Source: Vampirovibrionia bacterium (lineage in GTDB: Bacteria; Cyanobacteriota; Vampirovibrionia; LMEP-6097). Taken from it: a stretch of DNA of 64,000 bases. The translations under genes and the position numbers were made by a program. This document shows, one piece after another, positions 2,484-29,582 of this stretch. Below the pieces are notes generated by a model. That model was not told where the DNA came from, made no database searches, and saw only the letters and a list, made by a program, of their open reading frames with translations. The number at the start of each line of letters is the position of its first letter. The first letter of the stretch is position 1. The DNA is taken from assembly GCA_049314535.1 (NCBI GenBank), contig JBMOEX010000001.1, positions 404 through 64,403 on the forward strand, given 5' to 3'.

Positions 2484-2527
2484 GAGACTGTTTCCAAGCG
2501 CAGAAATTGTAGTTTGGAAACAGTCTC
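2484..2527. repeat. palindromic repeat element copy (GAGAC...GTCTC type), intergenic
   Basis: gagactgtttccaa-gcgcagaaattgtagt-ttggaaacagtctc. It has 14-bp perfect inverted arms, and its loop matches the family core cgcagaaattgGAGT. Confidence 0.6.
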
Positions 2528-2542: not shown

Positions 2543-2917
2543 ATGGTTCACGTCGATAACTCTGCTATAAATCAATATCAGGGAGTTTCTTATAATTCTG
2601 AGTCAGAGGATTTTGGTCTTTTGAATGTTGAGGATTTTAGAGAAGACCTGTCTCCAGAAGAGAGAGATAGATTAATTAATTTTTTTAGTGAAGCCATTCA
2701 TACTCAGAATAAAGATGAGGCACAGGCTAGGCGCAGTGAATTAAAAGCTCTAAGAGATATGAGTAAATTTAAACGAGACGTATCTTTAAATGCGATGCTT
2801 ACTTCTGCTGGATATGATTCGATAAGGCATTCACAAAATTATCAAGAAAGTTCAACAGCTTATTTGGCTTTTGATAATTTAATTTCTGATTTAGAAGGTG
2901 TATTAGGATCTAAGTAG
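2543..2917 (+). CDS. hypothetical protein
   Basis: 124-aa ORF with no recognisable motif. Confidence 0.35.
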   Translation: MVHVDNSAINQYQGVSYNSESEDFGLLNVEDFREDLSPEERDRLINFFSEAIHTQNKDEAQARRSELKALRDMSKFKRDVSLNAMLTSAGYDSIRHSQNYQESSTAYLAFDNLISDLEGVLGSK

Positions 2918-3016: not shown

Positions 3017-3982
3017 ATGTCTAATAGTCTTGAGAATCAGATAAATATAGTAGTTTCAGAATTGCCTGTGGCTGTTAGGCTTGATGTATATTTAGCTGGG
3101 CTGGAATCGCTGAATTTAACTAGATCCTTTATTGGGACTTTAATTGAGGGTGGGAGAATTTTACTTAATGCTAAAGTGGTAAAGGCTTCTCATAAAGTTA
3201 AGAACAGCGATACGATTTCTATTAATCTTCCGCCGCCAAGGAGTTTAGATATATTGCCAGAGGCTATTCCCTTGGATATTGTTTTTGAAGATGAATATCT
3301 TTTAGTTTTAAATAAGCAAGCTGGTTTAGTGGTGCACCCTTCATCTAATACGGTGAATGGCACTCTAGTAAATGCTCTTCTGTACCATTGTAAAGATAGC
3401 TTATCCCAAATCAATGGCGTCTTAAGACCTGGTATAGTACACCGTCTTGATAAAGATACTACAGGCTTAATGCTAGCTTGTAAAAATGATTTAGCACATA
3501 AGCGTTTAGCAGAGCAGATTAAAAATAGGGAAGTTGAAAGATATTATCAGACTCTAGTTCTCGGAAACTTAAGAGAAACTAGTGGCTCTGTGATTAAGCC
3601 TATTGGGCGTGATCACAATGATAGGAAGCGGATGCGTACTTTTGAAACTCTAGAACACGCTAGGTATGCGAAAACTAACTGGCAGTTATTAAAAAGATAT
3701 AAATATAAGGCTTCTCAAGACCCTTTTACACTGCTTGAATGTAAGCTAGATACAGGTAGAACTCATCAAATTCGTGTTCATATGAATTACATAAAGCACC
3801 CCATTATTGGTGATGCTGTTTATGGCATAGAGAAAAATAAATTAAAAGCATATAGACCGCTTCTGCACTCATATAAATTAGAGTTTACCCATCCTATTAC
3901 AGAGGAAAGGCTGAAATTTGAAATAGATCTACCTGAAGATTTTAAAGTTTCGCTGAGTTTTCTTGAAGAAAATTTACACTAA
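3017..3982 (+). CDS. rluD: 23S rRNA pseudouridine synthase, RluA/RluD family (S4-like N-terminus plus catalytic domain)
   Basis: HRLDKDTTGLMLACKND catalytic Asp motif. N-terminal S4-like region. ...TGRTHQIRVHM. Confidence 0.8.
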   Translation: MSNSLENQINIVVSELPVAVRLDVYLAGLESLNLTRSFIGTLIEGGRILLNAKVVKASHKVKNSDTISINLPPPRSLDILPEAIPLDIVFEDEYLLVLNKQAGLVVHPSSNTVNGTLVNALLYHCKDSLSQINGVLRPGIVHRLDKDTTGLMLACKNDLAHKRLAEQIKNREVERYYQTLVLGNLRETSGSVIKPIGRDHNDRKRMRTFETLEHARYAKTNWQLLKRYKYKASQDPFTLLECKLDTGRTHQIRVHMNYIKHPIIGDAVYGIEKNKLKAYRPLLHSYKLEFTHPITEERLKFEIDLPEDFKVSLSFLEENLH

Positions 3983-3998: not shown

Positions 3999-4045
3999 GG
4001 GCGTGCAGCCGATGAAAACGCAGAAATTGGAGTTCCGCTACGCCC
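3999..4045. repeat. palindromic repeat element copy at the convergent 3' ends of rluD and rplY
   Basis: gggcgtgcagc-cgatgaaaacgcagaaattggagttcc-gctacgccc. It matches the 121-nt composite element in the FtsX permease (39836..39956). It fills the 67-nt gap between the two stop codons. Confidence 0.6.
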
Positions 4046-14643: not shown

Positions 14644-16563
14644 ATGGTACTTAAAGTAAATTATCAGAAAATTATTAAGTCAAAAGCAAGTATATTTGTA
14701 TCGATATTTTTTGTATCAATATTTTTTTTTAATTCGTTCTGTTTCGCTGCTGAGACTATTCAAGAGCCTGTTCAAGAGACCACTGCACATAAGGCGGGTG
14801 AAAACGCAGAAAATGGAGTTGTGCAGTGGTCTCTAAAGCATAAATTCTTAAAGCTTGATGCATTGCCTTCTAATAAGGCTCCTAAAGCTGATGATAAATT
14901 TAATGTGATTTTAGAGGGCGTGTTGAGGTCAGACAGTGGCTTTCAAAAAGAAAGATTACGAGTTTTTCTAGATGATAGTTTAATTTCTAGTCCTGAAGAT
15001 TTTATAATACAAACTTTAGCGAAGGATAATAGAGTTAGGTTTACTTTTGCCAAGAGTGATTTAACTTATAAAGCTAAAGCAGCTAATTTACTTAAGATAA
15101 AGTTTTTAGACACAGAACTCGCGGGGAATATTTTAGCGGAGAGGGAAATACCTGTTTTTTTTAAACCTCGTGATACTTTTGAGACTAGTCCAGCCTTTGG
15201 TGGTTTTTTTGATACGCAGAAAATAGTATCTCTCAAAGTAGGGCTGTATGATGATGCTGCTTCGCAGCTCACTTCTATCGAATCATCTGAAATCTCTTCT
15301 AAGCTTAATAAACCTCTTAAAGTATCTTCAGATAAGAAGAAATTTCTATTAACTTTCGAGCATGATCCCCAGTATATTCAAGGTGAATCAGAGAGTACTT
15401 TTAGTGAAAAAAACTCAGTACTCCTAAATAATTTAAAAATCTTTAGCACAGATGCTAATGGTAAGAGAACTAACGTGACTAGTAAATTTTCTTTTAAGTT
15501 GAAAGCTAATTCTACTCATAAGTTTGCTGATTTTTCGACTCTGATAACTCAATTTACCACTGTAGGATTGGCTTACCCTGATATTCAGATTTTAGAATTT
15601 GTCGTAGATGTCGAAGATTATTTGAAAAAAATTAATGTCTTTTTCCCACAAGATGCACAAACTCGTTCTGAGAAAAGTATCAAGATAGGTGCTATTCAGA
15701 TCCCTTTAAGTACAGTAAATATTAATAAAAATACTATAGTTTTTTATGAAGATACTACGGCTAATCAATTCAGTATGATTAGTGATCCCGTTATTTTAAC
15801 TTCTTCTTATGCCACTGCTTTAAATTTAACGACCGTCTCTGCTTTTGCTTTTAATACTAAAGATATTGAGAACCACCCTCTAGCAGATTTAGCTAACTTG
15901 AAGCTCAGCATAAATCCCGCTCAGAAAACCTCTCTAGATTTAGTTTATGAGTTAGATAATATAGTAGTTAATCCTTCTGAGGTTCAAATACCAGTTAAGT
16001 TAAAGCTGAATAAAACTAAGGGCTTCTTTGTTAAAAATAGGGATTTAATGAATTTTGGTGAGCTTAAGACACTAGATTTACCTTTTGCTTTAATCGTGAA
16101 AAACTCTCTGGGAGTGGATAATGATTTAAGGGGACGTTTTAATCAGGCTTTAATTTTTAAATTTATAGATAGTCCTCATTTTATAGATAAGGCTTCTGCG
16201 ACAGTTAAGCTTAATAAGAATCCTTTAAACCCTTCTCTGGTACTGAAGTTTGATTATAATAACAGTGCAGATAGTTCTGTTGATGCGCTAGATCTGGTTA
16301 TTAATCTTTTAGATGCTAACTCTAATAAAGTCGCTACTGCTAAATTTGAAAATTTTTCGACTCTTACTAAAAAAGCTAGTGGGATTTTTCAGAAAACTCT
16401 AACTAATGCTGAGTTAGGTGAAGCCTTCTTTGCGAATATTTCTGCTGTTACGAAAGTACAGTTGGAGCTTCATAGAGATCAAGATTATTTAAATAGACTC
16501 GCTTTAGACCCTGCTCAGTATCCTGTTTTGAATGAAGTAGATACTTTGTTGTTGATCTTATAG
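14644..16563 (+). CDS. hypothetical secreted protein carrying an in-frame palindromic element insertion
   Basis: 639 aa. Signal-peptide-like N-terminus (FVSIFFVSIFFFNSFCFAAE). Residues ~41-64 (..ETTAHKAGENAENGVVQWSL..) are encoded by repeat copy 14776..14833. Confidence 0.45.
   Translation: MVLKVNYQKIIKSKASIFVSIFFVSIFFFNSFCFAAETIQEPVQETTAHKAGENAENGVVQWSLKHKFLKLDALPSNKAPKADDKFNVILEGVLRSDSGFQKERLRVFLDDSLISSPEDFIIQTLAKDNRVRFTFAKSDLTYKAKAANLLKIKFLDTELAGNILAEREIPVFFKPRDTFETSPAFGGFFDTQKIVSLKVGLYDDAASQLTSIESSEISSKLNKPLKVSSDKKKFLLTFEHDPQYIQGESESTFSEKNSVLLNNLKIFSTDANGKRTNVTSKFSFKLKANSTHKFADFSTLITQFTTVGLAYPDIQILEFVVDVEDYLKKINVFFPQDAQTRSEKSIKIGAIQIPLSTVNINKNTIVFYEDTTANQFSMISDPVILTSSYATALNLTTVSAFAFNTKDIENHPLADLANLKLSINPAQKTSLDLVYELDNIVVNPSEVQIPVKLKLNKTKGFFVKNRDLMNFGELKTLDLPFALIVKNSLGVDNDLRGRFNQALIFKFIDSPHFIDKASATVKLNKNPLNPSLVLKFDYNNSADSSVDALDLVINLLDANSNKVATAKFENFSTLTKKASGIFQKTLTNAELGEAFFANISAVTKVQLELHRDQDYLNRLALDPAQYPVLNEVDTLLLIL
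14776..14833. repeat. palindromic repeat element copy (GAGACC...GGTCTC type), in-frame inside a CDS
   Basis: gagaccactgcaca-taaggcgggtgaaaacgcagaaaatggagt-tgtgcagtggtctc. 14-bp perfect terminal inverted repeats. Confidence 0.7.
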
Positions 16564-16980: not shown

Positions 16981-18204
16981 ATGACCTCATCAGATTTTGA
17001 TACCGTAGAATCAGCTATAGAAGATATTCGTAACGGAAAGATGATTATTGTTGCAGATGACGATAATCGTGAAAATGAAGGTGATTTAATCTGCGCAGCA
17101 GAGAAGGTAAGCCCAGAGATTATTAATTTTATGAGCAAGCATGCTCGTGGTTTGATTTGTTTAACTTTAGATTCAGAGACTGTAAAGAAGCTCAATCTAG
17201 ATGACATGGTAAGGGAAAATACCGATGCTAATAAAACAGCTTTTACCATTAGCATTGATGCTGATCCACGTTTTGGGGTGACTACTGGTATAAGTGCTTT
17301 TGATCGAGCAAAGACTATAGAAGTAGCTTTAGCTAATGACGTAGTCGCCAGTGATCTGAGAAGACCTGGACATATCTTTCCTCTTAAGTCCGTGGAGGGT
17401 GGTGTTTTGAAGAGGGTCGGTCATACTGAGGCTTCAGTGGATCTTGCTCGCTTAGCTGGTCTTAAACCATCTGGAGTTATCTGTGAAATTCTTAAAGATA
17501 ATGGTGAGATGGCTAGGCGTGATGATCTTTTTAAGTATGCTAAAGAGTTTGGGCTGAAATTCATTACTATAGCTGATTTGGTGGCTTATAGACTTAAGAA
17601 AGAACGTTTTGTGCATCGTATTGTAGATGTAGCTCTGCCAAATAAGTATTCCGAAGATTTTAGAATATATGGTTATAAAGATTCTCTTTCGGATAAAGAG
17701 CATGTAGCTTTAGTTTTAGGTGATTTAGAGAAAGCTGTTGAAGATTCTAAGCCAGTTTTAGTTAGGGTGCACAGTGAATGCTTAACTGGAGATTTATTTG
17801 GTAGTTTGCGCTGTGATTGTGGAACCCAGTTAGATGGAGCGATTAAACAGATTCGTGAAGCAGGTTTGGGCGTTTTAGTATATTTAAGGCAGGAAGGTAG
17901 GGGCATTGGTCTTTTAAATAAATTAAAGGCATATGAATTGCAGGATGAAGGTCACGACACGGTTTCAGCTAATTTACAGTTGGGTTTCCCTGCTGATTTA
18001 AGGACTTTTGGTGTAGGAGCACAGATACTTTCCGATTTAGGACTTAAGGAAATTAAACTGCTTACTAATAATCCGAAGAAGATTTATGGGATAGAGGGAT
18101 ATGGTCTGAAAATCACAGAGAGGGTTCCACTGCATTATGAAGCATGTAAGCATAATGAAAAATACTTAGAGACTAAGAGAAACAAGTTAGGTCATTTATT
18201 TTAA
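16981..18204 (+). CDS. ribBA: bifunctional 3,4-dihydroxy-2-butanone-4-phosphate synthase / GTP cyclohydrolase II
   Basis: N-terminal RibB domain (..RENEGDL.., ..GHTEA..). C-terminal RibA domain with the zinc motif CLTGDLFGSLRCDCG and ..RQEGRGIGL.. . Confidence 0.9.
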   Translation: MTSSDFDTVESAIEDIRNGKMIIVADDDNRENEGDLICAAEKVSPEIINFMSKHARGLICLTLDSETVKKLNLDDMVRENTDANKTAFTISIDADPRFGVTTGISAFDRAKTIEVALANDVVASDLRRPGHIFPLKSVEGGVLKRVGHTEASVDLARLAGLKPSGVICEILKDNGEMARRDDLFKYAKEFGLKFITIADLVAYRLKKERFVHRIVDVALPNKYSEDFRIYGYKDSLSDKEHVALVLGDLEKAVEDSKPVLVRVHSECLTGDLFGSLRCDCGTQLDGAIKQIREAGLGVLVYLRQEGRGIGLLNKLKAYELQDEGHDTVSANLQLGFPADLRTFGVGAQILSDLGLKEIKLLTNNPKKIYGIEGYGLKITERVPLHYEACKHNEKYLETKRNKLGHLF

Positions 18205-20264
18205 TGCCGATAAGAATACTATCTGATTTGATTGCTAATCAAATTGCTGCAGGTGAAGTAGTAGAAGGGGCTTTATCTGTTGTTAAAGAATTAGTCGAAA
18301 ACAGTATAGATGCTGGAGCTAATTCGATTGCGGTGGAGCTTAGTAAACAGCTTAGATACATTAAAGTTTCGGATAATGGTTCTGGTATTCCAGTAAATGA
18401 ATTACCTTTAGCTTTCACTCGGCATGCGACTAGTAAGATTACAGAAATAGAGGATTTATTTTCTATAGACTCTAATGGCTTTAGAGGAGAGGCTTTAGCG
18501 AGTATAGCTTCTGTAAGTAGAGTTACCTGTATTAGTAAAACTAGATCTGAAGCTGATGCTACAAAATTTTATATAGATGCTGATAGAGAAGAAGTATCCT
18601 CTGTGGGTGCTGGAGTCGGTACTAGTATAGAGGTAGATGAGCTTTTTTATAATACTCCAGCTCGTTTGAAGTTTATGAAGTCTGTGGTAAAAGAGAAGCA
18701 GAATATTATAGATCTGTTAAAAGCCTTTTCTATATTCAATCCTAATGTTTCTTTTGAACTTTTAATTGATGGAAAAACTCAGTTTAAGGTTTTAAAAGAT
18801 CAGCCTTTTAAAGTTACAGCACGTGAATTATTTGGCAAATCTGTATTTGAGCATTTAATTAATTTCGAATATAATACTGGAGCGATTAAAGTTTCAGGCT
18901 ATTTATCAGCTCCAGAGCTGAATCGTAGCGACAAGCGATATTATTTTACTGCGGTAAATAAGCGTATTATTAAATGTAATACGATAAGATCTGCTGTGGA
19001 TAGGGTTTATAAAGATTTATTACCTGTAAAGAAATATCCTATTATCATTATTAATTTAGAGCTGCCGAGCTCAGACGTCGACGTTAATGTACATCCGCGT
19101 AAACAAGAAGTTAAATACTTACACGCTAATGAAGTTTATAGAACTTTAATCACTGCAATTTCTACTGATTTATCTGAGTATTTTTATAAATGTTCAGAAT
19201 ATAAACAGTTAGAGATTTTCAATCCAGTACTAGCAGATTTAGAACCTCATGCTGATTCGGATCTTAGTGGTGAGGAGCGTCCTAGCCTTTTTTCTGAAAG
19301 AGAATATACACCTTCAATACTGAGGAGGACGAATGACCGCAGTGTAATTTCCAGCGATGCCGAGCCTGCAACATCAATTGAAGATTGCGAGCAGTCCCCT
19401 TTGGAGACTGGGGTGAGTGAAAGTGGCATCATGCATCAGTCTCGCTGTGACAGTGATAAAACTTTATCTTTCCTTACAAGGTTCCCATCTATTGAGGTGA
19501 ATTTTATAGAAGGAGATCTTTCTGATTACCTTGAGGGTATTAGCTTTGATGAGCGAGAAGAGAGTTTTAAAATCTTCAGTGCTAATGCTGATCAGTCTTT
19601 TGGGTTTTTAGTAACAGGTAAATTATTTCCAGTCGATGAAAGTATACAGGATTTATATTTAGACTCTTTAGAAGTATTTACGAAGAAGCTGTTAGAGACT
19701 AAATCTGAAGATAATTTACTGTATGCTGAATCTAATTCTTTAAAGGAGTTAGCCATAATGACGGGAGGTACTTCTTTAGATAAACAAGCTGCAACTAAAC
19801 TACTTTCTAAAAAGAAACCAGCGACTAAACTTTCAAGACCTAGTATAAAACCTCCTTTAGGACAGCTTGAAGAGATTTGGGCTAGAGATAATTATTCATG
19901 TGTATACTGTGCTAAAGCACTTATTCATCCTAAGGTGGTGAAGCAGGCTTTACTTAGAGCTGAATCTGAGTCAATCTCTTGGCTGAATGCACGCAATGAA
20001 AAAATTAGCGAGCATTTGATTGAAGCACATAAAGCTTCCTTTGATCATCATTTGCCAGCTTCTAAATTTGCGGTCTTGAATTTAGACTCTCGTAATCTTT
20101 TTGCTACTTGCAGGGAATGTAATCAGAGAAAATCTGCAAGTTTAGCTAGTAAAACTTGGACACCACGGCAAGTAAATTCTTGGGCTAATTTTTCAATTAA
20201 TAATCCCTTAGAGCTAGCTGGAGTAAAATTTATATCAGCGTTAGAGGCGATTTATGATAATTAA
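18204..20264 (+). CDS. mutL: DNA mismatch repair protein MutL with an atypical C-terminal HNH nuclease domain
   Basis: GHKL ATPase N-terminus (..ELVENSIDAGA.., ..DNGSGI.., ..GFRGEAL..) and transducer domain (..VNVHPRKQEV..). The C-terminus has CVYCAK...DHHLPASKF...NLFATCRECNQRKS, which is an HNH motif. An in-frame repeat insert lies in the linker. Confidence 0.8.
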   Translation: MPIRILSDLIANQIAAGEVVEGALSVVKELVENSIDAGANSIAVELSKQLRYIKVSDNGSGIPVNELPLAFTRHATSKITEIEDLFSIDSNGFRGEALASIASVSRVTCISKTRSEADATKFYIDADREEVSSVGAGVGTSIEVDELFYNTPARLKFMKSVVKEKQNIIDLLKAFSIFNPNVSFELLIDGKTQFKVLKDQPFKVTARELFGKSVFEHLINFEYNTGAIKVSGYLSAPELNRSDKRYYFTAVNKRIIKCNTIRSAVDRVYKDLLPVKKYPIIIINLELPSSDVDVNVHPRKQEVKYLHANEVYRTLITAISTDLSEYFYKCSEYKQLEIFNPVLADLEPHADSDLSGEERPSLFSEREYTPSILRRTNDRSVISSDAEPATSIEDCEQSPLETGVSESGIMHQSRCDSDKTLSFLTRFPSIEVNFIEGDLSDYLEGISFDEREESFKIFSANADQSFGFLVTGKLFPVDESIQDLYLDSLEVFTKKLLETKSEDNLLYAESNSLKELAIMTGGTSLDKQAATKLLSKKKPATKLSRPSIKPPLGQLEEIWARDNYSCVYCAKALIHPKVVKQALLRAESESISWLNARNEKISEHLIEAHKASFDHHLPASKFAVLNLDSRNLFATCRECNQRKSASLASKTWTPRQVNSWANFSINNPLELAGVKFISALEAIYDN
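19320..19443. repeat. mosaic repeat element insertion inside the mutL linker region
   Basis: ctgaggaggacgaatgaccgcagtgta (19320..19346) matches the FtsX-permease composite element, where it encodes LRRTNDR(N/S)V. A further hairpin follows at 19404..19443: gagactgg...cagtctc. Confidence 0.6.
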
Positions 20265-23200
20265 GCTAATAGCCTATCTTTGTTTTTTTTTAAGTGGCTT
20301 TGCTGCACTGGTACATGAGCTTTCTTGGTCACGTATTTTAAAGCAGGTTTTTATTTCTGAATCACTAAGCACGGCTTTAGTTTTAATAATTTTTTTTGGT
20401 GGCATCGCTATAGGTTCTTATTTAGCTGCAGCTTTAAGTAAATTCTTTTATCCAGCTAAGAGTTCCTATGCCTCTTTGTTTATTTTTAGTATTTTAAATT
20501 TAGTTTTAGCTTTTTTAACTTATTTAACTGGTAATTTCTTTAATCCAGAGCATTTATTTTCTTCATTAATGTTAGCCCCTATTTCCATACTCTTGGGTAG
20601 CTTATTTCCATTATTGAGTAATTTCTATGTTGCGTATCGTGAAAATAATACTGAGAAATCTAATACAGTCTCCAAAGTATATTTTGTGAATACCTTTGCT
20701 GGATTGCTTGCTATTTTTTTTGTGATTTTCTTTGCTTTTAAACAGCTTGGTTTAAAGCTTACCCTGCATAATCTTGCGATTCTACATCTTTCTATATTTA
20801 TTCTAAGCTTTTTGCCATCTCTATTTAATATCAAGGCTGTAGTCGTTGAGATTTTTGAGTCGATTAAAATATTTACTTTAAATCTTAGTTTACATAGTCC
20901 TAAAAATCAATTATCAAAAGCTTTCGATGACGATAATGTAGAAGATGAAACTCTTTTGAATATTGAGACTCAAGGATCTAAGGTATTGCTGTGGCTTAGC
21001 TTTGCCTTTGGTTTTATTTTATTGGGGCTTGAGCTTGTCTGGATGAGAGCTTTTAGTCTTATTCTAGCTAGTTCAGTTTACTCTTTTGCTATGGTTCTTG
21101 CGGCAGTTATATTTGGTCTTGCTTTAGGAACTTTTATATTCTACTTAGTAGCTAAACCTCTTAAACTCAGTCAGGGAAATAGTTTTGAAGATGATATTGA
21201 GCATATTAATTGGCTTGTGTTGCTTTTGGCAGCCTTAATTTTCATCAGTTCATTTAGCTTTAAATCCCTTACAGGTACTTATTTATATTTAATAGATTCG
21301 GTGGGATTTTTATTGAATGATTTTCATCGAGAGGATTTATATAAAACTGCTTTGAGTTTTATGAAATTTATACTAGCTGGTATAGTTGTGGTGCCAGTTT
21401 CTGCGACTATAGCTTTTGCTAGTACCTATTTATTACAGATATTTACCTACAGTGATTATCTGAACGATAGATATAGAGTGCTTAATGCAGGTGCTAATAT
21501 CGGTAAAGTTTTTTCTATTAATACTCTTGGTGGTATTCTTGGTTCTTTTGTTACAGTTTTCTTTTTTATTCCTTCGCTAGATGGTGGTCTTAATCAGTGT
21601 TTCCTGATATTTAATTTAATAGCTTTACTTACTTTAGCGATTACTCTTAGTTTTTCTAAAGAGAAACAGTATTTTTTATTTTTTATTGCAGCTTTGTGTT
21701 TCATAGCTTTGATTCTTTTAAAGCCGAATTTTATTACAGCTAGAACAGCTAGTGGAGCAGAGCTCTATTATGCATTAAAGTACAGAGGTGAGCAAGGATA
21801 TTATGTAGATGACACTCAGGAAGAGGTTTTGTTTCATCAAGATGGGCTCTATTCTACAGTAACCGTTATTAAAGATAGTTTCGCTAATACTATTTATTTG
21901 AAAAATAATGCAAAAGTTGAAGCTGGTATCCCAATTGAGGATGAGATATTCTCAGCAGCTGATATGCAAACGCAAGTTTTACTAGGTGTCGCTCCTAAGT
22001 ATTTTAAAGATGAGTTTAATAATATTTTACTTATTGGAATGGGCTCTGGGATTACTTTAGACTCACTTGCGATGATTAGTGGTGATGCTAAACTATGCGT
22101 GGCGGAGATAGAGGATCTAGTCTTTAAGGCGGCTGATAAATTCTTTTCTCAGGCTTGGCAAGCTATTCCAGATAAGAAAATTACTAGATATAGGGGTAAT
22201 GCTCGCTCGCTGATTAAATCATCTAAAGAAAAATATGATTTAATCGTTTCACAGCCTTCTGATCCTTGGCTATCAGCAGATATGTTTACTGATGAATTCT
22301 GGAAATTAGCTCATAGTAAGCTTTCTAAAGATGGAATTTTTGTCCAGTGGTTGCAGCTTTATTCTTTAGAGCCTAAGTATCTTTTACTGACTTTAAATAC
22401 CCTGAAGCATAATTTTAAACATTTACTAGTAATTCATCCGCCACGTACTGCTGAAATTATAATACTTGCTAGTGATAAGGATTTTCGCTTTAGAGATTTT
22501 AATGTAGATAAATATCCTTATTTGAAAACCAGTCTGAATCGAGTTTCTATACATAATTCAGCAGACTTTATGGCAAATATTATGCTTGCACCGAAAGATG
22601 TGAAAAATTTATTAGTAGTTGAAGTTCCTCGCCTGGATTTGCCTGCACCGATGTTGAATAATTCTAATAATTCTTTACTTGAGTTTCATACAGCTGAAAA
22701 TTTTTATAAGTTTTCAGAAACTATTAATCAAAATTTACAGGCATTAACATCTTATGTATCTTTCGAACATATTTTATCTTTAGCTAAATATAATTCTGAG
22801 TCTGAGAAAATAGCTTTAGTTCAGGCTTTAAGAGCTAATTACCAAAAGAGTTTATCAGGCCAGTCTTTAAAAACACGGGCTTCTTTTTATAAGAATAAGC
22901 TTTATACACAGTCTTTAAGTTCTGGGACTATTCCCTTGCTAAGTGAGGAGGATGAACTGGAAGATACTTTGGTTTTAAAAACTGCTTCAGAGGCTGATGC
23001 TGAGTATAAATTAAAAGAGGATCAGTTAATAAAAGAAAAATTATTAAAGGAAGAGGCTTTGAAAAAGCAGTTGGAGATTGATTCTAATTTATCGGAAGAA
23101 GAGAAGAAAAAAAGAAAAGAGCTTGAGGCAGAGGAAGATATAGAAGTTCAAGATATTGAAATAGTGCATAAACCACTAAATATTTCATCTGCTGATGAAA

Positions 23201-23595
23201 AGAACTATAAGAGTCTTTTAGGGATTGGGGTTAAGAATTTCGAGCAGGGTTTTTATGACGATGCTGAAAAGAATTTTAGAACCGCATTGAAAATAGATCC
23301 TAATTTGGATCAAGCTTATTTATATTTAGCTCAGATAAAGCTTTTAATGAAGGATGATAACAAGTTTCTGGAATATATAAATTATTGCCTCAGAATAAAT
23401 CCTTTTAACGTAAAAGCTCTGTATCTAGCTGCTGATTATAATTACAGCTTTGCATCATTAGCTAAGGCGACTTTTTATGTAGATAGATTATTCATGGATA
23501 CTGACTATAAAACTAAACTAACGGCTGATGAGATAAATAAACTCATGAAGATTAGGAAGAAGCTAGCAGAGATTTTAGAGAAAAATCACCCTTAG
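20254..23595 (+). CDS. large polytopic membrane protein with spermidine-synthase-like domain and C-terminal TPR repeats
   Basis: 1113 aa, with at least 12 hydrophobic segments. A SpeE-like motif (..DLIVSQPSDPW..) sits mid-protein. A Lys/Glu-rich coiled region and TPR-like repeats lie at the C-terminus. 11-nt overlap with mutL. Confidence 0.65.
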   Translation: MIIKLIAYLCFFLSGFAALVHELSWSRILKQVFISESLSTALVLIIFFGGIAIGSYLAAALSKFFYPAKSSYASLFIFSILNLVLAFLTYLTGNFFNPEHLFSSLMLAPISILLGSLFPLLSNFYVAYRENNTEKSNTVSKVYFVNTFAGLLAIFFVIFFAFKQLGLKLTLHNLAILHLSIFILSFLPSLFNIKAVVVEIFESIKIFTLNLSLHSPKNQLSKAFDDDNVEDETLLNIETQGSKVLLWLSFAFGFILLGLELVWMRAFSLILASSVYSFAMVLAAVIFGLALGTFIFYLVAKPLKLSQGNSFEDDIEHINWLVLLLAALIFISSFSFKSLTGTYLYLIDSVGFLLNDFHREDLYKTALSFMKFILAGIVVVPVSATIAFASTYLLQIFTYSDYLNDRYRVLNAGANIGKVFSINTLGGILGSFVTVFFFIPSLDGGLNQCFLIFNLIALLTLAITLSFSKEKQYFLFFIAALCFIALILLKPNFITARTASGAELYYALKYRGEQGYYVDDTQEEVLFHQDGLYSTVTVIKDSFANTIYLKNNAKVEAGIPIEDEIFSAADMQTQVLLGVAPKYFKDEFNNILLIGMGSGITLDSLAMISGDAKLCVAEIEDLVFKAADKFFSQAWQAIPDKKITRYRGNARSLIKSSKEKYDLIVSQPSDPWLSADMFTDEFWKLAHSKLSKDGIFVQWLQLYSLEPKYLLLTLNTLKHNFKHLLVIHPPRTAEIIILASDKDFRFRDFNVDKYPYLKTSLNRVSIHNSADFMANIMLAPKDVKNLLVVEVPRLDLPAPMLNNSNNSLLEFHTAENFYKFSETINQNLQALTSYVSFEHILSLAKYNSESEKIALVQALRANYQKSLSGQSLKTRASFYKNKLYTQSLSSGTIPLLSEEDELEDTLVLKTASEADAEYKLKEDQLIKEKLLKEEALKKQLEIDSNLSEEEKKKRKELEAEEDIEVQDIEIVHKPLNISSADEKNYKSLLGIGVKNFEQGFYDDAEKNFRTALKIDPNLDQAYLYLAQIKLLMKDDNKFLEYINYCLRINPFNVKALYLAADYNYSFASLAKATFYVDRLFMDTDYKTKLTADEINKLMKIRKKLAEILEKNHP

Positions 23596-23690
23596 AGACC
23601 ACTGCACAACTCCATTTTCTGCGTTTTCGTTGTGCAGCGGTCTCTCATGCACAACGTGCAGTTTCTGCGTTTTCGTTTTCTGCGTTTTGA
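23595..23690. repeat. palindromic element plus degenerate tandem sub-repeats between the convergent speE-like and clpC 3' ends
   Basis: gagaccactgcacaac-tccattttctgcgttttc-gttgtgcagcggtctc at 23595..23644, overlapping the TAG stop. Then come further copies of the ttctgcgttttcg unit (..gtttctgcgttttcgttttctgcgttttg..). Confidence 0.7.
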
Positions 23691-23699
23691 TCGGAGCTT

Positions 23700-26429
23700 T
23701 TACCCAGCTCTATTACCAACAGGCTCACCGCCACCAGTCTCAGAACCTACTCCACCACCTGTTCCGTTAAGACCAAGAGCTTTCTTTTTCTTTTTAATAG
23801 TAGATCTTTTTAGTTCTTCCTGTTTTTCTGGAGGTAGTTTACCTGTAACTCTAAATTTAATTTGAGCTTTAACTAAAGCTTGTCTCTTATCAGCATCTTT
23901 AGTCTCTTCAGTTACATCCTCTGGTTTTTCATAAATTTTATCTTTAGGAAACTCTGCTTCGAAAATTACATAGGCTTCGATCTCGTCTCCATCAGTATGT
24001 TCGCCATTGATGAGAGAATCTGAAATCGGATCTTCAAGAAGCTTCTGTATAGTTCTCTTCATCGGTCTTGCACCATAAGTTCTGTTATAACCTTCAGTCG
24101 AGACTTTATCTTTAACTTCATCTGTAAGAGTAATAGTCATACCTTTCTCTTTCAGTCTGCTTTCTAGATCTTTTTTCATGATATCGACTATCTTACGCAT
24201 ATCAGTACGAGTTAAGTGTTTAAATATAACGATATCATCAAGCCTGTTCAAGAACTCCGGTCTAAATGCACGTTTCATTTCTTCCATTACGGCATCTTTC
24301 ATGCGTTTATATTTTTCATCTTCAGCTTGCTCTTCAGTATTAGAAGCGAAGAAACCTACACCAAAATCACTGTTCATGCGCTGAGCACCTACGTTAGAGG
24401 TCATGATAATAATAGTATTTTTAAAGCTAACTTTACGTCCTTTACTATCAGTTAAATGACCGTCATCTAACATCTGTAACATAACGTTAAATACGTCAGG
24501 GTGAGCCTTCTCTATTTCATCGAAAAGTACTACGCTGTAAGGCTTTCTACGAACGGCTTCAGTTAATTGACCGCCATCGCCGTAACCAACATATCCAGGA
24601 GGTGAACCTATAAGCTTACTTACAGTGTGCTTTTCCATGTACTCAGACATGTCCACTCTGATTAAATTATCAGCACTGCCGAAATAATAATCAGCAAGAA
24701 CTTTAGCTAGCTCAGTCTTACCTACACCAGTAGGACCGCAGAACACAAAAGAACCTATCGGTCTTTCTGGATTTTTCAATCCCGCTCTAGCTCTTCTAAT
24801 AGCTTTAGAAACAGCTGTAACAGCTGAGTCTTGACCTATAATTTTGCCATGAAGAGTATCTTCCATCTGTCTTAGCTTGTCATTCTCTCCAGCTTTTAAA
24901 TCACCAACAGGAATCCCAGTCCAGCTAGCCACTATTTCAGCTATTTCTTCCTCGCCGACAGTAGGTTTATTTTTTTCTTGCTCTCTTCTCCACTCTTCTT
25001 GGAGACTACGAATTTTTTCTCTAATATTATTTTCTTGATCTCTGAGCTGTGAAGCTTTTTCAAATTCTTGCTGACGAATAGCTTCTTCTTTTTGTCTTGA
25101 AATAGTAACTAATTCATCTTCGTATTTTTTAGCTTCTGGTGGTAAACCACTAGCCTTAAGTCTTACTCGAGAACTAGCTTCATCTATAAGATCTATAGCT
25201 TTATCTGGTAAATGTCTATCGAAAATATATCTATCAGATAATCTAGCAGCAGCTTCTACAGCAGCATCAGTGATAATTAGGCGATGATGCTCTTCATATT
25301 TCTGTCTTAGACCAATAATGATCTGAATAGTCTCTTCTACAGAAGGAGAGTCTATAATTACAGGCTGAAAGCGTCTCTCTAGAGCAGCATCTCTTTCTAT
25401 ATGCTTACGATATTCTTCTAAAGTAGTAGTACCGATACATTGAAGCTCTCCACGAGCGAGTGCTGGTTTTAAAATATTTGCTGCATCTATAGCACCTTCA
25501 GCTGCTCCAGCTCCTATTAAAGTATGTAGCTCATCTATGACTAACATCATATTTCCAGCAGTACGGATTTCATCCATTATTTTTTTAAGTCTTTCTTCAA
25601 ATTCGCCTCTATATTTAGTTCCAGCGACTAAAAGACCTAAATCTAAAACGATTAATTTTTTACCAACTAAAATATCTGGTACATCATTCGCTACTATTTT
25701 TTGAGCTAAGCCCTCAGCTACAGCAGTTTTACCTACACCAGGTTCACCGATTAATACAGGATTATTCTTGGTTCTTCTACCTAATATTTGAATTACTCTT
25801 TCTATTTCCTCAGCACGCCCAATAACAGGATCTAATCTACCTTCGGCAGCAGCTAAAGTGAGATCTGTACCAAATTCATCTAAAGTAGGTGTTCTAGTTC
25901 TAGTATTTTGGTTAGCGTTTTTATTAGAACCCACTCCGAGTAAAGAATTATTAGTACTACTACCAGAACCACCAGTAGCAGTAGAGTTAGAACCTGATTC
26001 ACCAAGTAATCTAATAATATGCTGTCTAACTTTAGCTAAATCTACACCTAAATTATCTAAAACTCTCGCAGCGACTCCTTCACCTTCTCTGATTAAGCCT
26101 AGTAAAAGGTGCTCCGTACCTATATAGTTATGTCCGAACTGCCTAGCTTCATCCCAGCTTAATTCTAAAACCCATTTAGCTCTAGGTGTAAATGGAATTT
26201 CAACTGCTACGAAACCTGAGCCTCTACCTATAATTTTTTCCACTTCGATGCGGGCGTCTTTTAAGTTCACTCCCATGGATTTTAGGGTTTTAGCTGCTAC
26301 ACCAGTTCCTTCTCCGATAAGTCCGAGCAATATCTGCTCGGTACCAACGAAATTATGACCAAGTCTTCTAGCTTCTTCTTGAGCTAGCATTATGACTTTT
26401 ATCGCCTTCTCTGTAAATCTTTCAAACAT
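23700..26429 (-). CDS. clpC: ATP-dependent Clp protease ATP-binding subunit ClpC, with low-complexity linker insertion and extended C-terminal tail
   Basis: 909 aa, with two N-terminal Clp_N repeats. Both AAA+ modules carry Walker A/B motifs ([16 protein letters not shown]). A UVR-like middle domain is present. The C-terminal extension of about 75 aa is Lys-rich then Gly-rich. Confidence 0.9.
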
Positions 26430-27581: not shown

Positions 27582-29582
27582 ATGAAGAAAGTCCCCTCTA
27601 CTTTACCTCTAGTTGTTTTAGTGCTGTTCCTATCTCTCTTTGTCATGAGTTTGATGGGACAGGATAATAAAAGAAGAATCCTGAGCTACAGCGATTTTAT
27701 TAAGCGAGTTTTACCTAACGATGGTTCGTCTAGTCCTATATATAGAGTCATTTTGACTAATGGCGATGATATAGCTAAGATCGAGGATAAAAATGGTGAG
27801 ATCTACTACGCTCGTATTCCAGCAAGTTTACTAGGTGCTAATCAAGATTTAGCTGATAGGCTCGTTAATCATGACATCGAGGTAGATGTTAAAGCCCAGT
27901 CTAACGAAGGTTTCTGGATAAATATTATTTCTAATTTTATTATTCCAGTAGGTTTATTTGCATTCTTTATATTTATGCTCAGAAACGCTGGTGGCGGCGG
28001 TCCTATGTCTTTCGGAAAGAGCAGGGCGAAGATGATGACTAAAGACATTAATGTCAGCTTTGATGATGTCGCTGGTATTAGTGAAAGTAAAAGAGAATTA
28101 GAAGAGATAGTAGATTTTCTGAAAAGTACAGATAAATACAAGGCTCTGGGGGCTAAGGTGCCGAAGGGGGTTTTGCTGGTAGGTCCACCTGGTTGTGGTA
28201 AAACTTTACTTGCAAAAGCGGTAGCTGGTGAGGCTGGAGTGCCTTTCTTTAGTATCAGTGGCTCTGATTTCGTCGAGATGTTCGTCGGGGTAGGAGCTAG
28301 TAGAGTTAGAGATCTTTTCGAGCAGGCTAAGAAAAATGCACCATGTATCATTTTTATAGATGAGATAGATGCAGTCGGTAGGCAGCGTAGCGGTATGTCT
28401 GGTGGCGGAAATGATGAGCGTGAGCAGACTTTAAACCAGTTATTAGTAGAGATGGATGGCTTTCAACCTAACTCTGGAATTATTGTTTTAGCTGCGACGA
28501 ATAGACCAGATGTCTTGGATAAGGCATTATTAAGACCAGGTAGATTTGATAGGAAAGTAGTTATAGATACTCCAGATTTAGCTGGCAGAAAGCAGATCTT
28601 AGATGTTCACGCCAGAGGCAAGCCTATGGCAGCTGACATAGATCTAAAAGTTATAGCGAAAAGAACACCAGGTTTCAGTGGTGCAGATTTAATGAATTTG
28701 GTAAATGAATCAGCGATACTGGCTGCAAGGGATACTGCTAAAGAGATTCAGGTTAAACACATAGAAGAAGCTATAGATAAGGTTGCTATTGGTCCAGAGA
28801 AACGCAGTAAAATCATTAAGCCTAAAGATCAGTTAAATACTGCGATTCATGAAATAGGTCATACGATAATTAGTATTTTTAAAGAATCTAATAATGAATT
28901 TCATAAAGTAACTATTATCCCAAGAGGTATGGCATTAGGTTTGACTTGGTCTACTGAAGAGGAATATAAAGTATCGGCTTCTGAAAAGCATTTAAAGACA
29001 GAGATGATGGTGCTTTTAGGTGGCAGAGTGGCAGAGGAGATAACTTTCGGTAAGGAAAATATTACTACTGGCGCGTCTAATGATATGGAAAGATGCACTG
29101 CTATTGCAAGAGCGATGATCACTCGTTATGGAATGAATAGTAATTTAGGCATAGTCACTTATGGTGATAATGAATCTAATCCTTATCTGTCTCAGAGCTC
29201 TTATATGCAGAACTATAGTGATGAGTTTGCTAAAAAAATCGATGAGGAAGTTAAGGATTTAATACAGACTATGTACACGGAGGTAAAGACTCTCTTAAAT
29301 GAAAAGAAAACTCTTTTACTAGGCTTATCTCAGGAGCTTTTAAGAAGAGAGACTTTAGATAAAGAACAAGTTTTCTTAACTATAGAGCAGATACAGAAAG
29401 GCGAATATGAAATCTTAAGTTTAGAGGAGATGGAAAAAATCGCTACTTCTAGAATGCCAGAGCGTGTTGAAACTATGATACGTGAAGAAGAAGCTCAGAG
29501 ACGTGATGAGCGTGAGAGATTAAGAAAAGAAGAGAACGAGGAAAAGCGTGAAGACACTAGAGATAAAGATGAAGAAGCTTAG
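27582..29582 (+). CDS. ftsH: ATP-dependent zinc metalloprotease FtsH
   Basis: 666 aa, N-terminal TM segments, AAA Walker A GPPGCGKT, zinc site HEIGHTI, charged C-terminal tail. Confidence 0.9.

What the first reader, a model, noticed from the sequence alone, without database searches (positions are those of the whole stretch)
14776..14833. Identical 12-residue peptide ENAENGVVQWSL encoded by the same hairpin element in two unrelated proteins
The GAGACC-type hairpin at 14776..14833 lies in the plus-strand secreted-protein gene. Its partial copy at 39446..39486 lies in the minus-strand permease gene. Both sit in the frame that gives ENAENGVVQWSL. A third copy (23595..23644) lies in the opposite orientation outside any CDS. 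Hitting the same reading frame in opposite genomic orientations suggests either frame and orientation selection, or that only this frame and orientation lacks stop codons and so survives in CDSs.
Basis: seen in the sequence. Interest (0 to 1): 0.55.

Follow-up and report, generated by a model that had tools for sequence, protein, structure and literature searches.

The report
Mobile hairpin repeat translated inside genes
The shared 12-residue peptide is the footprint of a small mobile hairpin-forming DNA repeat of Melainabacteria that sits inside genes without breaking them, because only copies lying in the gene's own direction and in one reading frame persist; it is a new example of a known kind (like the Rickettsia palindromic elements).

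Summary
The same 34-nt sequence occurs at 14800-14833(+), 23595-23628(-) and 39446-39479(-, 1 mismatch), and both genic copies encode ENAENGVVQWSL.

These hairpins are shortened derivatives of a 121-nt miniature inverted-repeat element (MITE). It has 12-14-nt terminal inverted repeats and a 5-bp target-site duplication. 121+5 = 126 nt = 42 codons.

A complete copy lies in the same permease gene (39836-39956). Orthologues 98% identical lack exactly those 126 bp.

The family fills five Caenarcaniphilales/Melainabacteria genomes. Of 244 copies or fragments, 122 lie inside called genes, at 103 distinct sites. All internal ones are sense-oriented and in one frame (F0).

The stop-codon explanation is insufficient. 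The 58-nt hairpin is open in 5 of 6 frames, and the 121-nt parent is open in both F0 and antisense R0, yet R0 is never found inside a gene. Intergenic copies show no orientation bias (18:18). The filter therefore most likely acts on the translated product: F0 is very hydrophilic and R0 is not.

Peptide sequence itself is not under selection. No transposase was found.

Verdict: a new member of a known kind, analogous to Rickettsia palindromic elements.

The parts
14776..14833 (+). 58-nt internally deleted copy (terminal-repeat type C, GAGACC...GGTCTC) in the unknown secreted-protein gene 14644..16563. It lies just after the signal-peptide-like segment, in frame F0, and encodes ETTAHKAGENAENGVVQWS.
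   Evidence: It is 63 nt (21 codons) shorter than the 121-nt form. Orthologues carry a decayed remnant at the same place. The L013 orthologue differs at 2 of 58 nt, against 19% at third codon positions of the gene.
39446..39486 (-). 5'-truncated copy (conserved core plus the 3' terminal repeat, type C) in the FtsX/MacB-type permease gene 38877..41657. Frame F0, encoding NENAENGVVQWS.
   Evidence: It lies in an indel-rich linker of the protein. Orthologue L108 shares it. L106 and L107 have a shorter, decayed sequence at the same place.
39836..39956 (-). Complete 121-nt element (type A, GGGCGTGTAGCC...GCTACACGCCC) in the same permease gene. Frame F0, encoding GRVAERTSSRLRRTNDRNVLGVHEDHEDDENAEIGVPLHA.
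   Evidence: Orthologous genes 97-98% identical at protein level lack exactly this block of 42 residues / 126 bp.
39831..39835 (.). One copy of the 5-bp target-site duplication of the complete element (ATATT on the + strand, AATAT on the gene strand).
   Evidence: The empty site in orthologues reads GGTGAATAT|GGCTCAACT.
39957..39961 (.). Second copy of the same 5-bp target-site duplication.
23595..23644 (-). 50-nt hairpin copy (type C) between convergent genes. It is antisense to ORF 20254..23595, whose TAG stop it overlaps by one base, and sense to and downstream of the ClpC-like gene 23700..26429.
23645..23690 (-). Cluster of further fragments abutting the 50-nt copy: two core pieces (GAAAACGCAGAA and CAAAACGCAGAA on the - strand) and a CTGCACGTTGTGCA piece.
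19302..19398 (+). Decayed remnant of the long (~200-nt) form, in the inter-domain region of the MutL gene 18204..20264. Frame F0 (...ILRRTNDRSVISSDAE...).
31423..31453 (+). 31-nt remnant (GAGACCGC...GTGCAGCGGTCTC) in the alanyl-tRNA synthetase gene 29548..32793. Frame F0 (ETASGLVQRS).
   Evidence: Frame computed from coordinates.
30418..30458 (+). Decayed 3' fragment in the same AlaRS gene, encoding NQNAEIAVQQQS.
   Evidence: (family D8).
572..600 (-). 5' fragment GGGCGTGTAGCCGAACGAACAAGTTCA in the partial ORF at the left window edge. Frame F0 (GRVAERTSS).
3999..4045 (+). 47-nt short copy (type A, imperfect stem) between convergent genes: the pseudouridine synthase gene 3017..3982 and the L25 gene 4050..4664.
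   Evidence: The fold is weak (z = -0.6).
2484..2527 (+). 44-nt mini hairpin (GAGACTGTTTCCAA-GCGCAGAAATTGTAGT-TTGGAAACAGTCTC), intergenic, 15 nt upstream of the ATG of ORF 2543..2917.
   Evidence: I10; -27.8 kcal/mol, z = -9.6. The same 44-nt class is seen in L097 and L061.

Best explanation
The hairpins are copies and decay products of a non-autonomous transposable element (a MITE) that is abundant in a group of Caenarcaniphilales/Melainabacteria genomes.

Anatomy:
- The unit is 121 nt, with a rarer form of about 200 nt.
- It has 12-14-nt terminal inverted repeats.
- Its interior is nearly invariant and includes the core GAAAACGCAGAAAWTGGAGTT.
- It has a small internal hairpin with a variable loop.
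- It inserts with a 5-bp A/T-rich target duplication.

How it survives in genes:
- Element plus duplication is 126 nt = 42 codons, so an insertion never shifts the host frame.
- Two of the three sense frames and two of the three antisense frames contain stops, which removes those insertions from coding sequence.
- The remaining antisense frame (R0) is open but is never seen inside genes. I infer this is because its product is much less hydrophilic than the acidic, hydrophilic, presumably flexible F0 product and is selected against.
- What survives in genes is therefore always sense and always F0. Unrelated proteins end up sharing identical peptides such as ENAENGVVQWSL.
- Inserted copies are later trimmed by in-frame deletions. 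The 58-nt hairpin and the 41-nt partial copy are such products.

Shown: repeat family, anatomy, target duplication, one empty site, the frame and orientation census, and absence of selection on the peptide sequence.
Inferred: the transposase-mediated mechanism (no transposase found), and that the orientation filter acts at the protein level.
For: Family and anatomy:
- The core pattern hits at least 104 loci in 5 MAG species.
- 54 of 55 complete copies are 121 nt long.
- Alignment shows the conserved interior and the terminal and internal stems.

Transposition signature:
- The direct repeat is exactly 5 bp. It is perfect in 16 of 54 copies and matches at 4 or more of 5 positions in 30 of 54. 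A shuffled control gives a mean of 0.68 perfect.
- An empty site is seen at protein and DNA level in orthologues 97-98% identical.

Frames:
- F0 is open in 45 of 55 copies and R0 in 44 of 55. The other four frames are open in 0-2 of 55.

Census:
- 244 nhmmer hits.
- Inside called genes, 121 are sense and 1 antisense.
- By frame: 116 F0, 5 in the other open sense frame and 1 R0. All six exceptions are at gene edges.
- These hits represent 103 distinct sites.

Database-wide:
- The R0 peptide finds only two 70-aa ORFs in 5.8 billion proteins.
- The F0 peptide finds 82 cluster representatives, including proteins of 400-630 aa.

Orientation is not set by transcription or replication:
- Intergenic copies between co-directional genes are 18 sense to 18 antisense.
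- Within this window, which has a single GC-skew trend, genic copies follow their gene on both strands.

Peptide not selected:
- Divergence from consensus is equal at codon positions 1/2/3 (5.8/7.2/6.6%) and equal to that of intergenic copies.

Hydropathy:
- GRAVY is -1.25 for F0 and -0.22 for R0.

Placement of the window's genic copies:
- Both permease pieces lie at indel-prone places of the protein.
- The secreted-protein copy lies just after a signal-peptide-like segment.
- The MutL remnant lies after the Pfam-matched N-terminal domains.
Against: - No transposase or autonomous partner with matching ends was found in the window or in about 790 kb of related loci.
- The terminal repeats occur in at least four sequence types that covary between the two ends while the interior stays constant. 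That is unusual for a transposase that reads the repeat sequence.
- Copies at orthologous sites are about half as diverged as neighbouring third codon positions (7.3% against 14.2%, lower in 22 of 22 pairs). Plain neutral 'junk' does not predict this. It needs gene conversion among copies or a constraint at the nucleotide level.
- The protein-level reason for the absence of R0 rests only on hydropathy.
- The 58-nt copy at 14776 has no recognisable target duplication.
- Flanks of insertion sites are only slightly more hydrophilic than random positions in the same proteins (-0.30 against -0.19, p = 0.04).
Confidence: 0.8

Rival explanations
1. Orientation is fixed at insertion rather than by later selection. 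The element would integrate only in the sense direction of transcribed or translated DNA, for example through a single-stranded DNA or RNA intermediate, which the covarying terminal stems might hint at.
For: - Sense-only distribution in genes.
- Terminal stems and the internal hairpin keep pairing through compensatory changes.
- A G.U/G.T pair closes the internal hairpin in 49 of 54 copies and exists only on the sense strand. That strand also folds better (-48.9 against -41.9 kcal/mol).
- No DDE transposase was found.
Against: - Intergenic copies between co-directional genes are 18 sense to 18 antisense.
- 9 antisense copies overlap gene 3' ends.
- A fixed 5-bp target duplication is typical of staggered cuts in double-stranded DNA.
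- Any site that permits F0 also permits R0, because both need the element's first base at codon position 1. Target preference therefore cannot produce the bias.
- Target duplications of intergenic copies are not A-rich on the element strand.
Confidence: 0.12
2. The repeat is kept because it does something for the host at the nucleic-acid level, for example as an mRNA-stabilising or terminating hairpin, a protein-binding site, or a recombination site. Its presence in genes would then be a by-product.
For: - Orthologous copies are about twofold more conserved than third codon positions, evenly over codon positions.
- The hairpins are very stable.
- Intergenic copies are enriched between convergent genes (29 of 73 copies against 21% of intergenic intervals) and depleted between divergent genes (8 of 73 against 20% of intervals).
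Against: - There is no T-run after the stems, so it is not an intrinsic terminator.
- No Rfam family matches.
- Copies are present or absent between near-identical orthologues and decay freely in some lineages.
- Enrichment downstream of genes is what selection against promoter disruption alone would give.
- Gene conversion among hundreds of copies can explain the slow divergence.
Confidence: 0.1
3. ENAENGVVQWSL is a functional protein motif shared by the two proteins and selected at the amino-acid level.
For: Identical 12 residues in two proteins. The F0 peptide is present in many proteins.
Against: - The identity is at DNA level (33 of 34 nt) and extends to an intergenic, inverted copy.
- There is no excess of third-position change in genic copies.
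- Close orthologues lack the segment or have let it decay.
- Host proteins are unrelated: permease, MutL, AlaRS, an SNF2-like helicase and others.
Confidence: 0.02

Closest known systems
Rickettsia palindromic elements (RPE-1 and relatives; Ogata et al. 2000, 2002, as summarised in PMC10969869 and PMC2229807)
   Same: - A palindromic repeat of about 100-150 bp with roughly 12-bp terminal inverted repeats.
- Many copies inserted in frame inside unrelated, often essential protein genes.
- Adds a conserved peptide of about 35-50 residues, and the host proteins appear to stay functional.
- Also present in intergenic DNA.
- No transposase of its own.
   Different: - The host is unrelated (Melainabacteria, not Rickettsia). 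Sequence similarity to RPEs was not tested.
- Here a clear 5-bp target duplication and a DNA-level empty site are seen. The review table marks target duplication for RPE as '?' (PMC2229807).
- Here terminal repeats come in several covarying types on one conserved interior.
- Whether RPEs show the same strict sense-only rule I could not check in the papers held.
Other bacterial MITEs with open frames fused to genes (ERIC/IRU, 107-bp Correia/NEMIS, YPAL, Anabaena MITEs; PMC2229807, PMC3184786)
   Same: Small size, terminal inverted repeats, target duplication, stable stem-loop, contiguous open frame, and occasional in-frame fusion with host ORFs.
   Different: - Those families are mostly intergenic, with TA or other duplications, and genic copies are the minority.
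- Here about half of all detected pieces lie inside genes.
- The full-length unit plus duplication is exactly 3n (121+5 = 126; the commonest long form, 202+5 = 207).
Tn3-derived inverted-repeat miniature elements (TIMEs)
   Same: 5-bp, A/T-rich target duplication. This resemblance is recalled from memory and is a lead only.
   Different: Tn3-family ends are about 38-bp inverted repeats starting GGGG. Here the inverted repeat is 12-14 bp, the ends start GGGC, GGCA, GAGA or GGGA, and the subterminal sequences of the two ends differ.
REP / BIME elements mobilised by RAYT (IS200/IS605-like) transposases (PMC3733652)
   Same: Short GC-rich palindromes, very numerous, often downstream of genes, with structure rather than sequence conserved in the stem.
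   Different: REPs are 20-40 nt, extragenic, carry a GTAG or CGTC head and make no target duplication. This element is 121 nt, makes 5-bp duplications and is frequent inside genes.

Membership tests
MITE (miniature inverted-repeat transposable element) | Terminal inverted repeats | tested here: met
   12-14-nt complementary termini in all 54 aligned complete copies.
MITE (miniature inverted-repeat transposable element) | Target-site duplication of fixed length | tested here: met
   Exactly 5 bp. Perfect in 16 of 54 copies, 4 or more of 5 positions in 30 of 54. The control gives a mean of 0.68 perfect, and no other length or boundary offset gives a comparable signal.
MITE (miniature inverted-repeat transposable element) | Small, many copies, no transposase gene inside | tested here: met
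   121 nt (rarely about 200 nt). 244 pieces in about 790 kb. Its only open frames are 40-residue read-throughs.
MITE (miniature inverted-repeat transposable element) | Filled and empty sites in related genomes | tested here: met
   The window carries 126 extra bp relative to L108, L106 and L107 at GGTGAATAT|GGCTCAACT.
MITE (miniature inverted-repeat transposable element) | An autonomous insertion sequence with the same ends in the same genomes | tested here: inconclusive
   None was found among window ORFs up to about 46 kb, among multi-copy ORFs, or among paired end fragments in the loci. Whole genomes could not be scanned.
Rickettsia palindromic elements (RPE) | In-frame insertion in many unrelated protein genes, adding a conserved peptide | tested here: met
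   103 distinct genic sites, all internal ones in frame F0. This is a functional resemblance only.
Rickettsia palindromic elements (RPE) | Sequence homology to RPE-1..10 and occurrence in Rickettsia | not tested
   No RPE sequences were available in the tools used. The host here is Melainabacteria, so family membership is not claimed.
REP / RAYT-associated palindromes | 20-40-nt extragenic palindrome with a GTAG/CGTC head and no target duplication | tested here: not met
   The unit is 121 nt, has a 5-bp duplication, half of the pieces are genic, and only one of four end types contains GTAG.
Tn3-derived miniature elements (TIME) | About 38-bp Tn3-type inverted repeats beginning GGGG | tested here: not met
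   The inverted repeat is limited to 12-14 nt and the subterminal sequences of the two ends are unrelated. The 5-bp duplication alone matches.
Intrinsic (rho-independent) terminator | GC-rich hairpin directly followed by a run of T/U | tested here: not met
   The stems are followed by TAAAGC, TACTTA and TAAGGG, with no T-run.
Curated RNA families (Rfam 15) | Score above a family's gathering threshold | tested here: not met
   0 matches in the whole window.

The most novel reading that the evidence does not exclude
The element may be more than a passively filtered transposon. It may be a mobile repeat adapted to live in coding sequence, possibly moved by an unusual mechanism.

Features that point this way:
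- The full-length unit keeps 3n with its duplication (121+5; the commonest long form, 202+5). The 58-nt derivative differs from it by an in-frame 63 nt.
- One sense frame encodes a bland acidic linker.
- Genic copies are retained about as often as intergenic ones.
- Orthologous copies are conserved beyond the synonymous rate.
- The termini vary only by compensatory changes while the interior is fixed, as if a folded single strand, not a sequence-specific double-stranded end, were the substrate, even though a 5-bp duplication is made.

If true, it would be a new transposition system that remodels protein linkers across a whole proteome.
Probability: 0.12. Interest if true: 0.75.

Novelty: new member of a known kind. 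Interest (0 to 1): 0.45.

Why it matters
It explains the identical peptides in unrelated proteins of these uncultured non-photosynthetic relatives of cyanobacteria.

It has practical consequences for annotation. Element-derived 10-67-residue inserts in MutL, AlaRS, transporters, helicases and others will mislead homology, domain and alignment-based analyses.

[quoted passage not shown] Unlike RPEs, it has a visible target duplication and an empty site. That makes questions left open for RPEs testable here: how such elements move, and why only one of two open frames is tolerated.

Tried and rejected
- Rfam scan of the whole window: no hit.
- blastn of the 121-nt unit against plasmids: no match.
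- Viral contig scan: one contig only, with a sense F0 fragment in a 1086-aa ORF. Not informative.
- Search for an autonomous element:
  - Paired 5'/3' fragments 0.1-7 kb apart turned out to be separate remnants inside host genes, for example an SNF2-like helicase in L091 with four remnants.
  - Multi-copy ORFs in the loci are DUF4143/AAA ATPases, solute-binding proteins and the like, not transposases.
  - Window ORFs up to about 46 kb are housekeeping genes.
- Replication-linked orientation: rejected. The window has one GC-skew trend, but genic copies occur on both strands, each matching its gene.
- Asymmetric target motif as the cause of orientation: rejected. F0 and R0 need the same insertion phase, and intergenic target duplications are not A-rich on the element strand (small sample).
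- Selection on the peptide: rejected by equal divergence at the three codon positions.
- First de-duplication of sites: it wrongly merged unrelated sites through neighbouring element-derived peptides. It was redone with strict flank orthology.
- Literature: no description of repeats in Caenarcaniphilales or Melainabacteria in the held library. Ogata 2002 could not be opened, so the frame and orientation rule for RPEs remains unverified.
Full report
**1. The observation**

- At 14776-14833 the + strand reads GAGACCACTGCACA-TAAGGCGGGTGAAAACGCAGAAAATGGAGT-TGTGCAGTGGTCTC, a perfect 14-bp stem. As RNA it folds at -28.2 kcal/mol, z = -6.7.
- Its right 34 nt recur on the minus strand at 23595-23628 (exact) and 39446-39479 (one mismatch). 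That is three matches where 100 shuffles gave none.
- ORF 14644..16563(+) and ORF 38877..41657(-) both contain ENAENGVVQWSL.
- The third copy is a 50-nt hairpin between convergent genes, and its first base is the last base of a TAG stop.

**2. What the hairpins belong to**

The 12-nt piece GAAAACGCAGAA occurs 7 times in the window against 0.5 expected. The extra sites led to hairpins with the same loop but different stems, and to a larger palindromic block in the permease gene.

It returned 104 eight-kb blocks, all from five MAGs labelled Caenarcaniphilales, Melainabacteria, 'Cyanobacteria', 'bacterium' or (probably wrongly) 'Proteobacteria'. One of them, L013, is the orthologous locus of the 14776 copy.

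Anatomy of the unit:
- Flanks of 128 core matches show a unit of 121 nt (54 of 55 complete copies).
- It has 12-14-nt terminal inverted repeats.
- The interior is almost invariant: RAACGAACAAGTTCAAGGCTGAGGAGGACGAATGACCGCAGTGTAC-TNNNN-GTACATGAGGATCATGAGGACGAC-core.
- The termini come in at least four sequence types that are complementary within each copy:
  - A: GGGCGTGTAGCC...GGCTACACGCCC
  - B: GGCACTGTTGCC...GGCAACAGTGCC
  - C: GAGACCGCTGCAC...GTGCAGCGGTCTC
  - D: GGGACTGCTCGC...GCGAGCAGTCCC
- RNAalifold counts 5-30 doubly compensated sequences at most terminal-stem pairs (1-2 at two of them). It also finds covariation at two pairs of the internal hairpin.
- A rarer form of 192-202 nt carries extra internal hairpins.

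**3. It is (or was) mobile**

- The 5 nt before and after complete copies are direct repeats. They are perfect in 16 of 54 copies and match at 4 or more of 5 positions in 30 of 54. Shuffled pairings give a mean of 0.68 perfect. No other repeat length or boundary offset gives a comparable signal. The duplicated sites are A/T-rich.
- The window's permease (926 aa) has orthologues of 884 aa that are 97-98% identical. They lack exactly the 42 residues YGRVAE...PLHAQ.
- At DNA level, three orthologous loci read GGTGAATAT|GGCTCAACT where the window has 121 nt plus a second AATAT.
- Terminal inverted repeats, a fixed target duplication, an empty site, high copy number and no internal gene are the defining features of a MITE.
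- No transposase was found in the sequence available.

**4. Frames**

- 121 + 5 = 126 nt = 42 codons, so an insertion never shifts the frame. The commonest long form does the same (202 + 5 = 207).
- Across 55 complete copies, only two of six frames are usually stop-free:
  - F0 (GRVAERTSSRLRRTNDRSVLGVHEDHEDDENAEIGV...): 45 of 55.
  - R0 on the opposite strand (GRVAELQFLRFRRPHDPHVLPVHSGHSSSSALNLFVRLHA): 44 of 55.
  - The other four frames: 0-2 of 55.
- The 58-nt hairpin of the finding is open in five of six frames.

**5. Census**

A profile of the 121-nt unit finds 244 copies or fragments in the window plus loci, about 790 kb in all.
- Requiring an ORF of at least 150 codons with at least 40 codons on each side: 93 are genic, of which 92 are F0, 1 is another sense frame and 0 are antisense.
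- With simple gene calls: 121 genic copies are sense and 1 is antisense.
- The 6 non-F0 cases lie 2-13 codons from a called start or 4 codons from a stop, so probably outside the real protein or at its very end.
- Strict orthology linking gives 103 distinct genic sites.
- Between co-directional genes, intergenic copies are 18 sense to 18 antisense. Nine antisense copies overlap gene 3' ends.
- In the protein databases, the R0 peptide matches only two 70-residue ORFs among 5.8 billion sequences. The F0 peptide matches 82 cluster representatives, including proteins of 400-630 residues. The two searches used different libraries, so this is a contrast, not a ratio.

**6. What sets the rule**

- Stops remove two of three frames in each orientation. 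They do not remove R0.
- A site that allows F0 also allows R0, because both need the element's first base at codon position 1. Target preference therefore cannot give the bias.
- Target duplications of intergenic copies are not A-rich on the element strand.
- Replication direction is excluded within the window. It has one GC-skew trend, yet genic copies occur on both strands, each following its gene.
- A general link to transcription is unlikely given the 18:18 intergenic split.
- That leaves selection on what is translated. F0 is strongly hydrophilic and acidic (GRAVY -1.25). R0 is not (-0.22), with a hydrophobic stretch. This step is an inference.

The peptide sequence itself is not under selection.
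- Genic copies differ from the consensus equally at codon positions 1, 2 and 3 (5.8, 7.2, 6.6%), like intergenic copies.
- The same holds between orthologous copies (8.1, 7.1, 6.8%).

Where the window's genic copies lie:
- just after a signal-peptide-like segment of the secreted protein;
- after the Pfam-matched N-terminal domains of MutL;
- at an indel-prone spot and in an indel-rich linker of the permease;
- at two places in an AlaRS that is 1081 residues long.

Over all sites, flanks are only slightly more hydrophilic than random positions in the same proteins (p = 0.04).

**7. The two copies of the finding**

- The 58-nt copy is the 121-nt unit minus 63 internal nt (21 codons). Orthologues that are 85-88% identical carry a decayed remnant at the same place (GAGTCCGCTGTAG...CAGAGAATGTAGT). 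The insertion is therefore old.
- The 41-nt copy is a 3' part in a variable linker. One orthologue shares it, and two have a shorter, decayed sequence there.
- Both are consistent with in-frame trimming of old F0 insertions. That explains why they keep F0 although most of their own frames are open.

**8. Unexplained residue**

- Orthologous copies are about half as diverged as neighbouring third codon positions: 7.3% against 14.2%, lower in 22 of 22 pairs. In the window against L013 the figures are 2 of 58 nt against 19%. Gene conversion among many copies, or a constraint on the nucleotide sequence, is needed. I could not separate these.
- The covarying termini on a fixed interior, and the variable 4-5-nt loop of the internal hairpin, also remain unexplained.

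**9. Comparison with known systems**

- In-frame residence of palindromic MITEs in genes is known from Rickettsia RPEs and, more rarely, from ERIC, the 107-bp Correia element, YPAL and Anabaena MITEs (PMC10969869, PMC2229807, PMC3184786).
- This family behaves like RPEs but is in an unrelated phylum. It shows a clear 5-bp duplication and an empty site, where the review table lists '?' for RPE.
- It is not a REP, not a Tn3-type miniature element and not a terminator (see the membership table).
- I found no description of it in the held literature.

**Verdict.** A new member of a known kind. Moderate interest, raised somewhat by the strict sense-only rule with an open antisense frame and by the odd conservation pattern.

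Noticed in passing
L003-L104, alignment A2 columns 59-63; window 39893-39897: The loop of the internal hairpin (GTGTAC-TNNNN-GTACAT) differs at 3-4 of 4 positions between copies that are otherwise nearly identical. More than 25 loop variants were seen. Some are shared across terminal-repeat types and across genomes. The unit is thus 58 nt + 5 nt + 58 nt, and the linker has the same length as the target duplication.
   Followed up: partly
L003-L104, alignment A2 columns 1-13 and 109-121: Four or more terminal-repeat types covary perfectly between the two ends, while the interior is the same in all. The same internal-hairpin variant occurs with different end types, so ends and interior appear to be reassorted.
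   Followed up: partly
22 orthologous copy pairs in L002-L104 and the window (e.g. window 14776-14833 vs L013): Copies at orthologous genic sites are about twofold less diverged than adjacent third codon positions, evenly over codon positions. This suggests gene conversion among copies or a nucleotide-level constraint.
   Followed up: partly
L008, L023, L027, L073, L097; window 19302-19398: A long form of 192-202 nt carries an extra segment of about 80 nt with two more hairpins (GAGCCA..TGGCTC and AAGCTTGAT..ATCAAGCTT). It is also open in F0, and 202+5 is a multiple of three.
   Followed up: partly
window 23645-23690; many loci: Fragments often lie directly next to, or just upstream of, complete copies, for example a core plus a degenerate end followed at once by a new 5' end. 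This suggests insertion into or beside existing copies.
   Followed up: no
L091 3505-7275 (-): A single 1256-aa SNF2-like helicase ORF carries four separate element-derived segments in frame (e.g. DREGDEKADIGV, RKRISSKLKKTNDENADL, SSRLRRTEGDENAEIEDGEQS, GTVAENAEIGVRQECH).
   Followed up: no
window 29548-32793: The alanyl-tRNA synthetase is 1081 aa, which from memory is about 200 residues longer than usual. The Pfam-matched core domain ends near residue 412 and the SAD domain starts at 855. Two element remnants account for only part of the extra length.
   Followed up: no
window 23700-26429 (-): The ClpC-like ATPase has a glycine- and lysine-rich C-terminal tail of about 80 residues beyond the last Pfam domain (...[31 protein letters not shown]). 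It ends just before the repeat cluster.
   Followed up: no
window 2484-2527: A very stable 44-nt mini hairpin of the family sits 15 nt upstream of the ATG of ORF 2543..2917, where it could occlude or position the ribosome-binding region.
   Followed up: no
loci plus window, intergenic copies: Intergenic copies are enriched between convergent genes (29 of 73 copies against 21% of intergenic intervals) and depleted between divergent genes (8 of 73 against 20%).
   Followed up: partly
RFQS01 loci (e.g. L005, L023): The MAG titled 'Proteobacteria bacterium WB4_1_1465' carries the same repeat family and orthologous genes as the Melainabacteria MAGs. Its public label is probably wrong.
   Followed up: no
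element positions 33-47 (GAGGAGGACGAATGACC); L012, L027, L099: The element contains a Shine-Dalgarno-like GGAGGA followed by ATG. Two further ATGs read out of its 3' end in the second open sense frame (MRIMRTTKTQKLEF). In three loci a called gene begins within or just before the element in that frame, so some copies may supply start codons.
   Followed up: no
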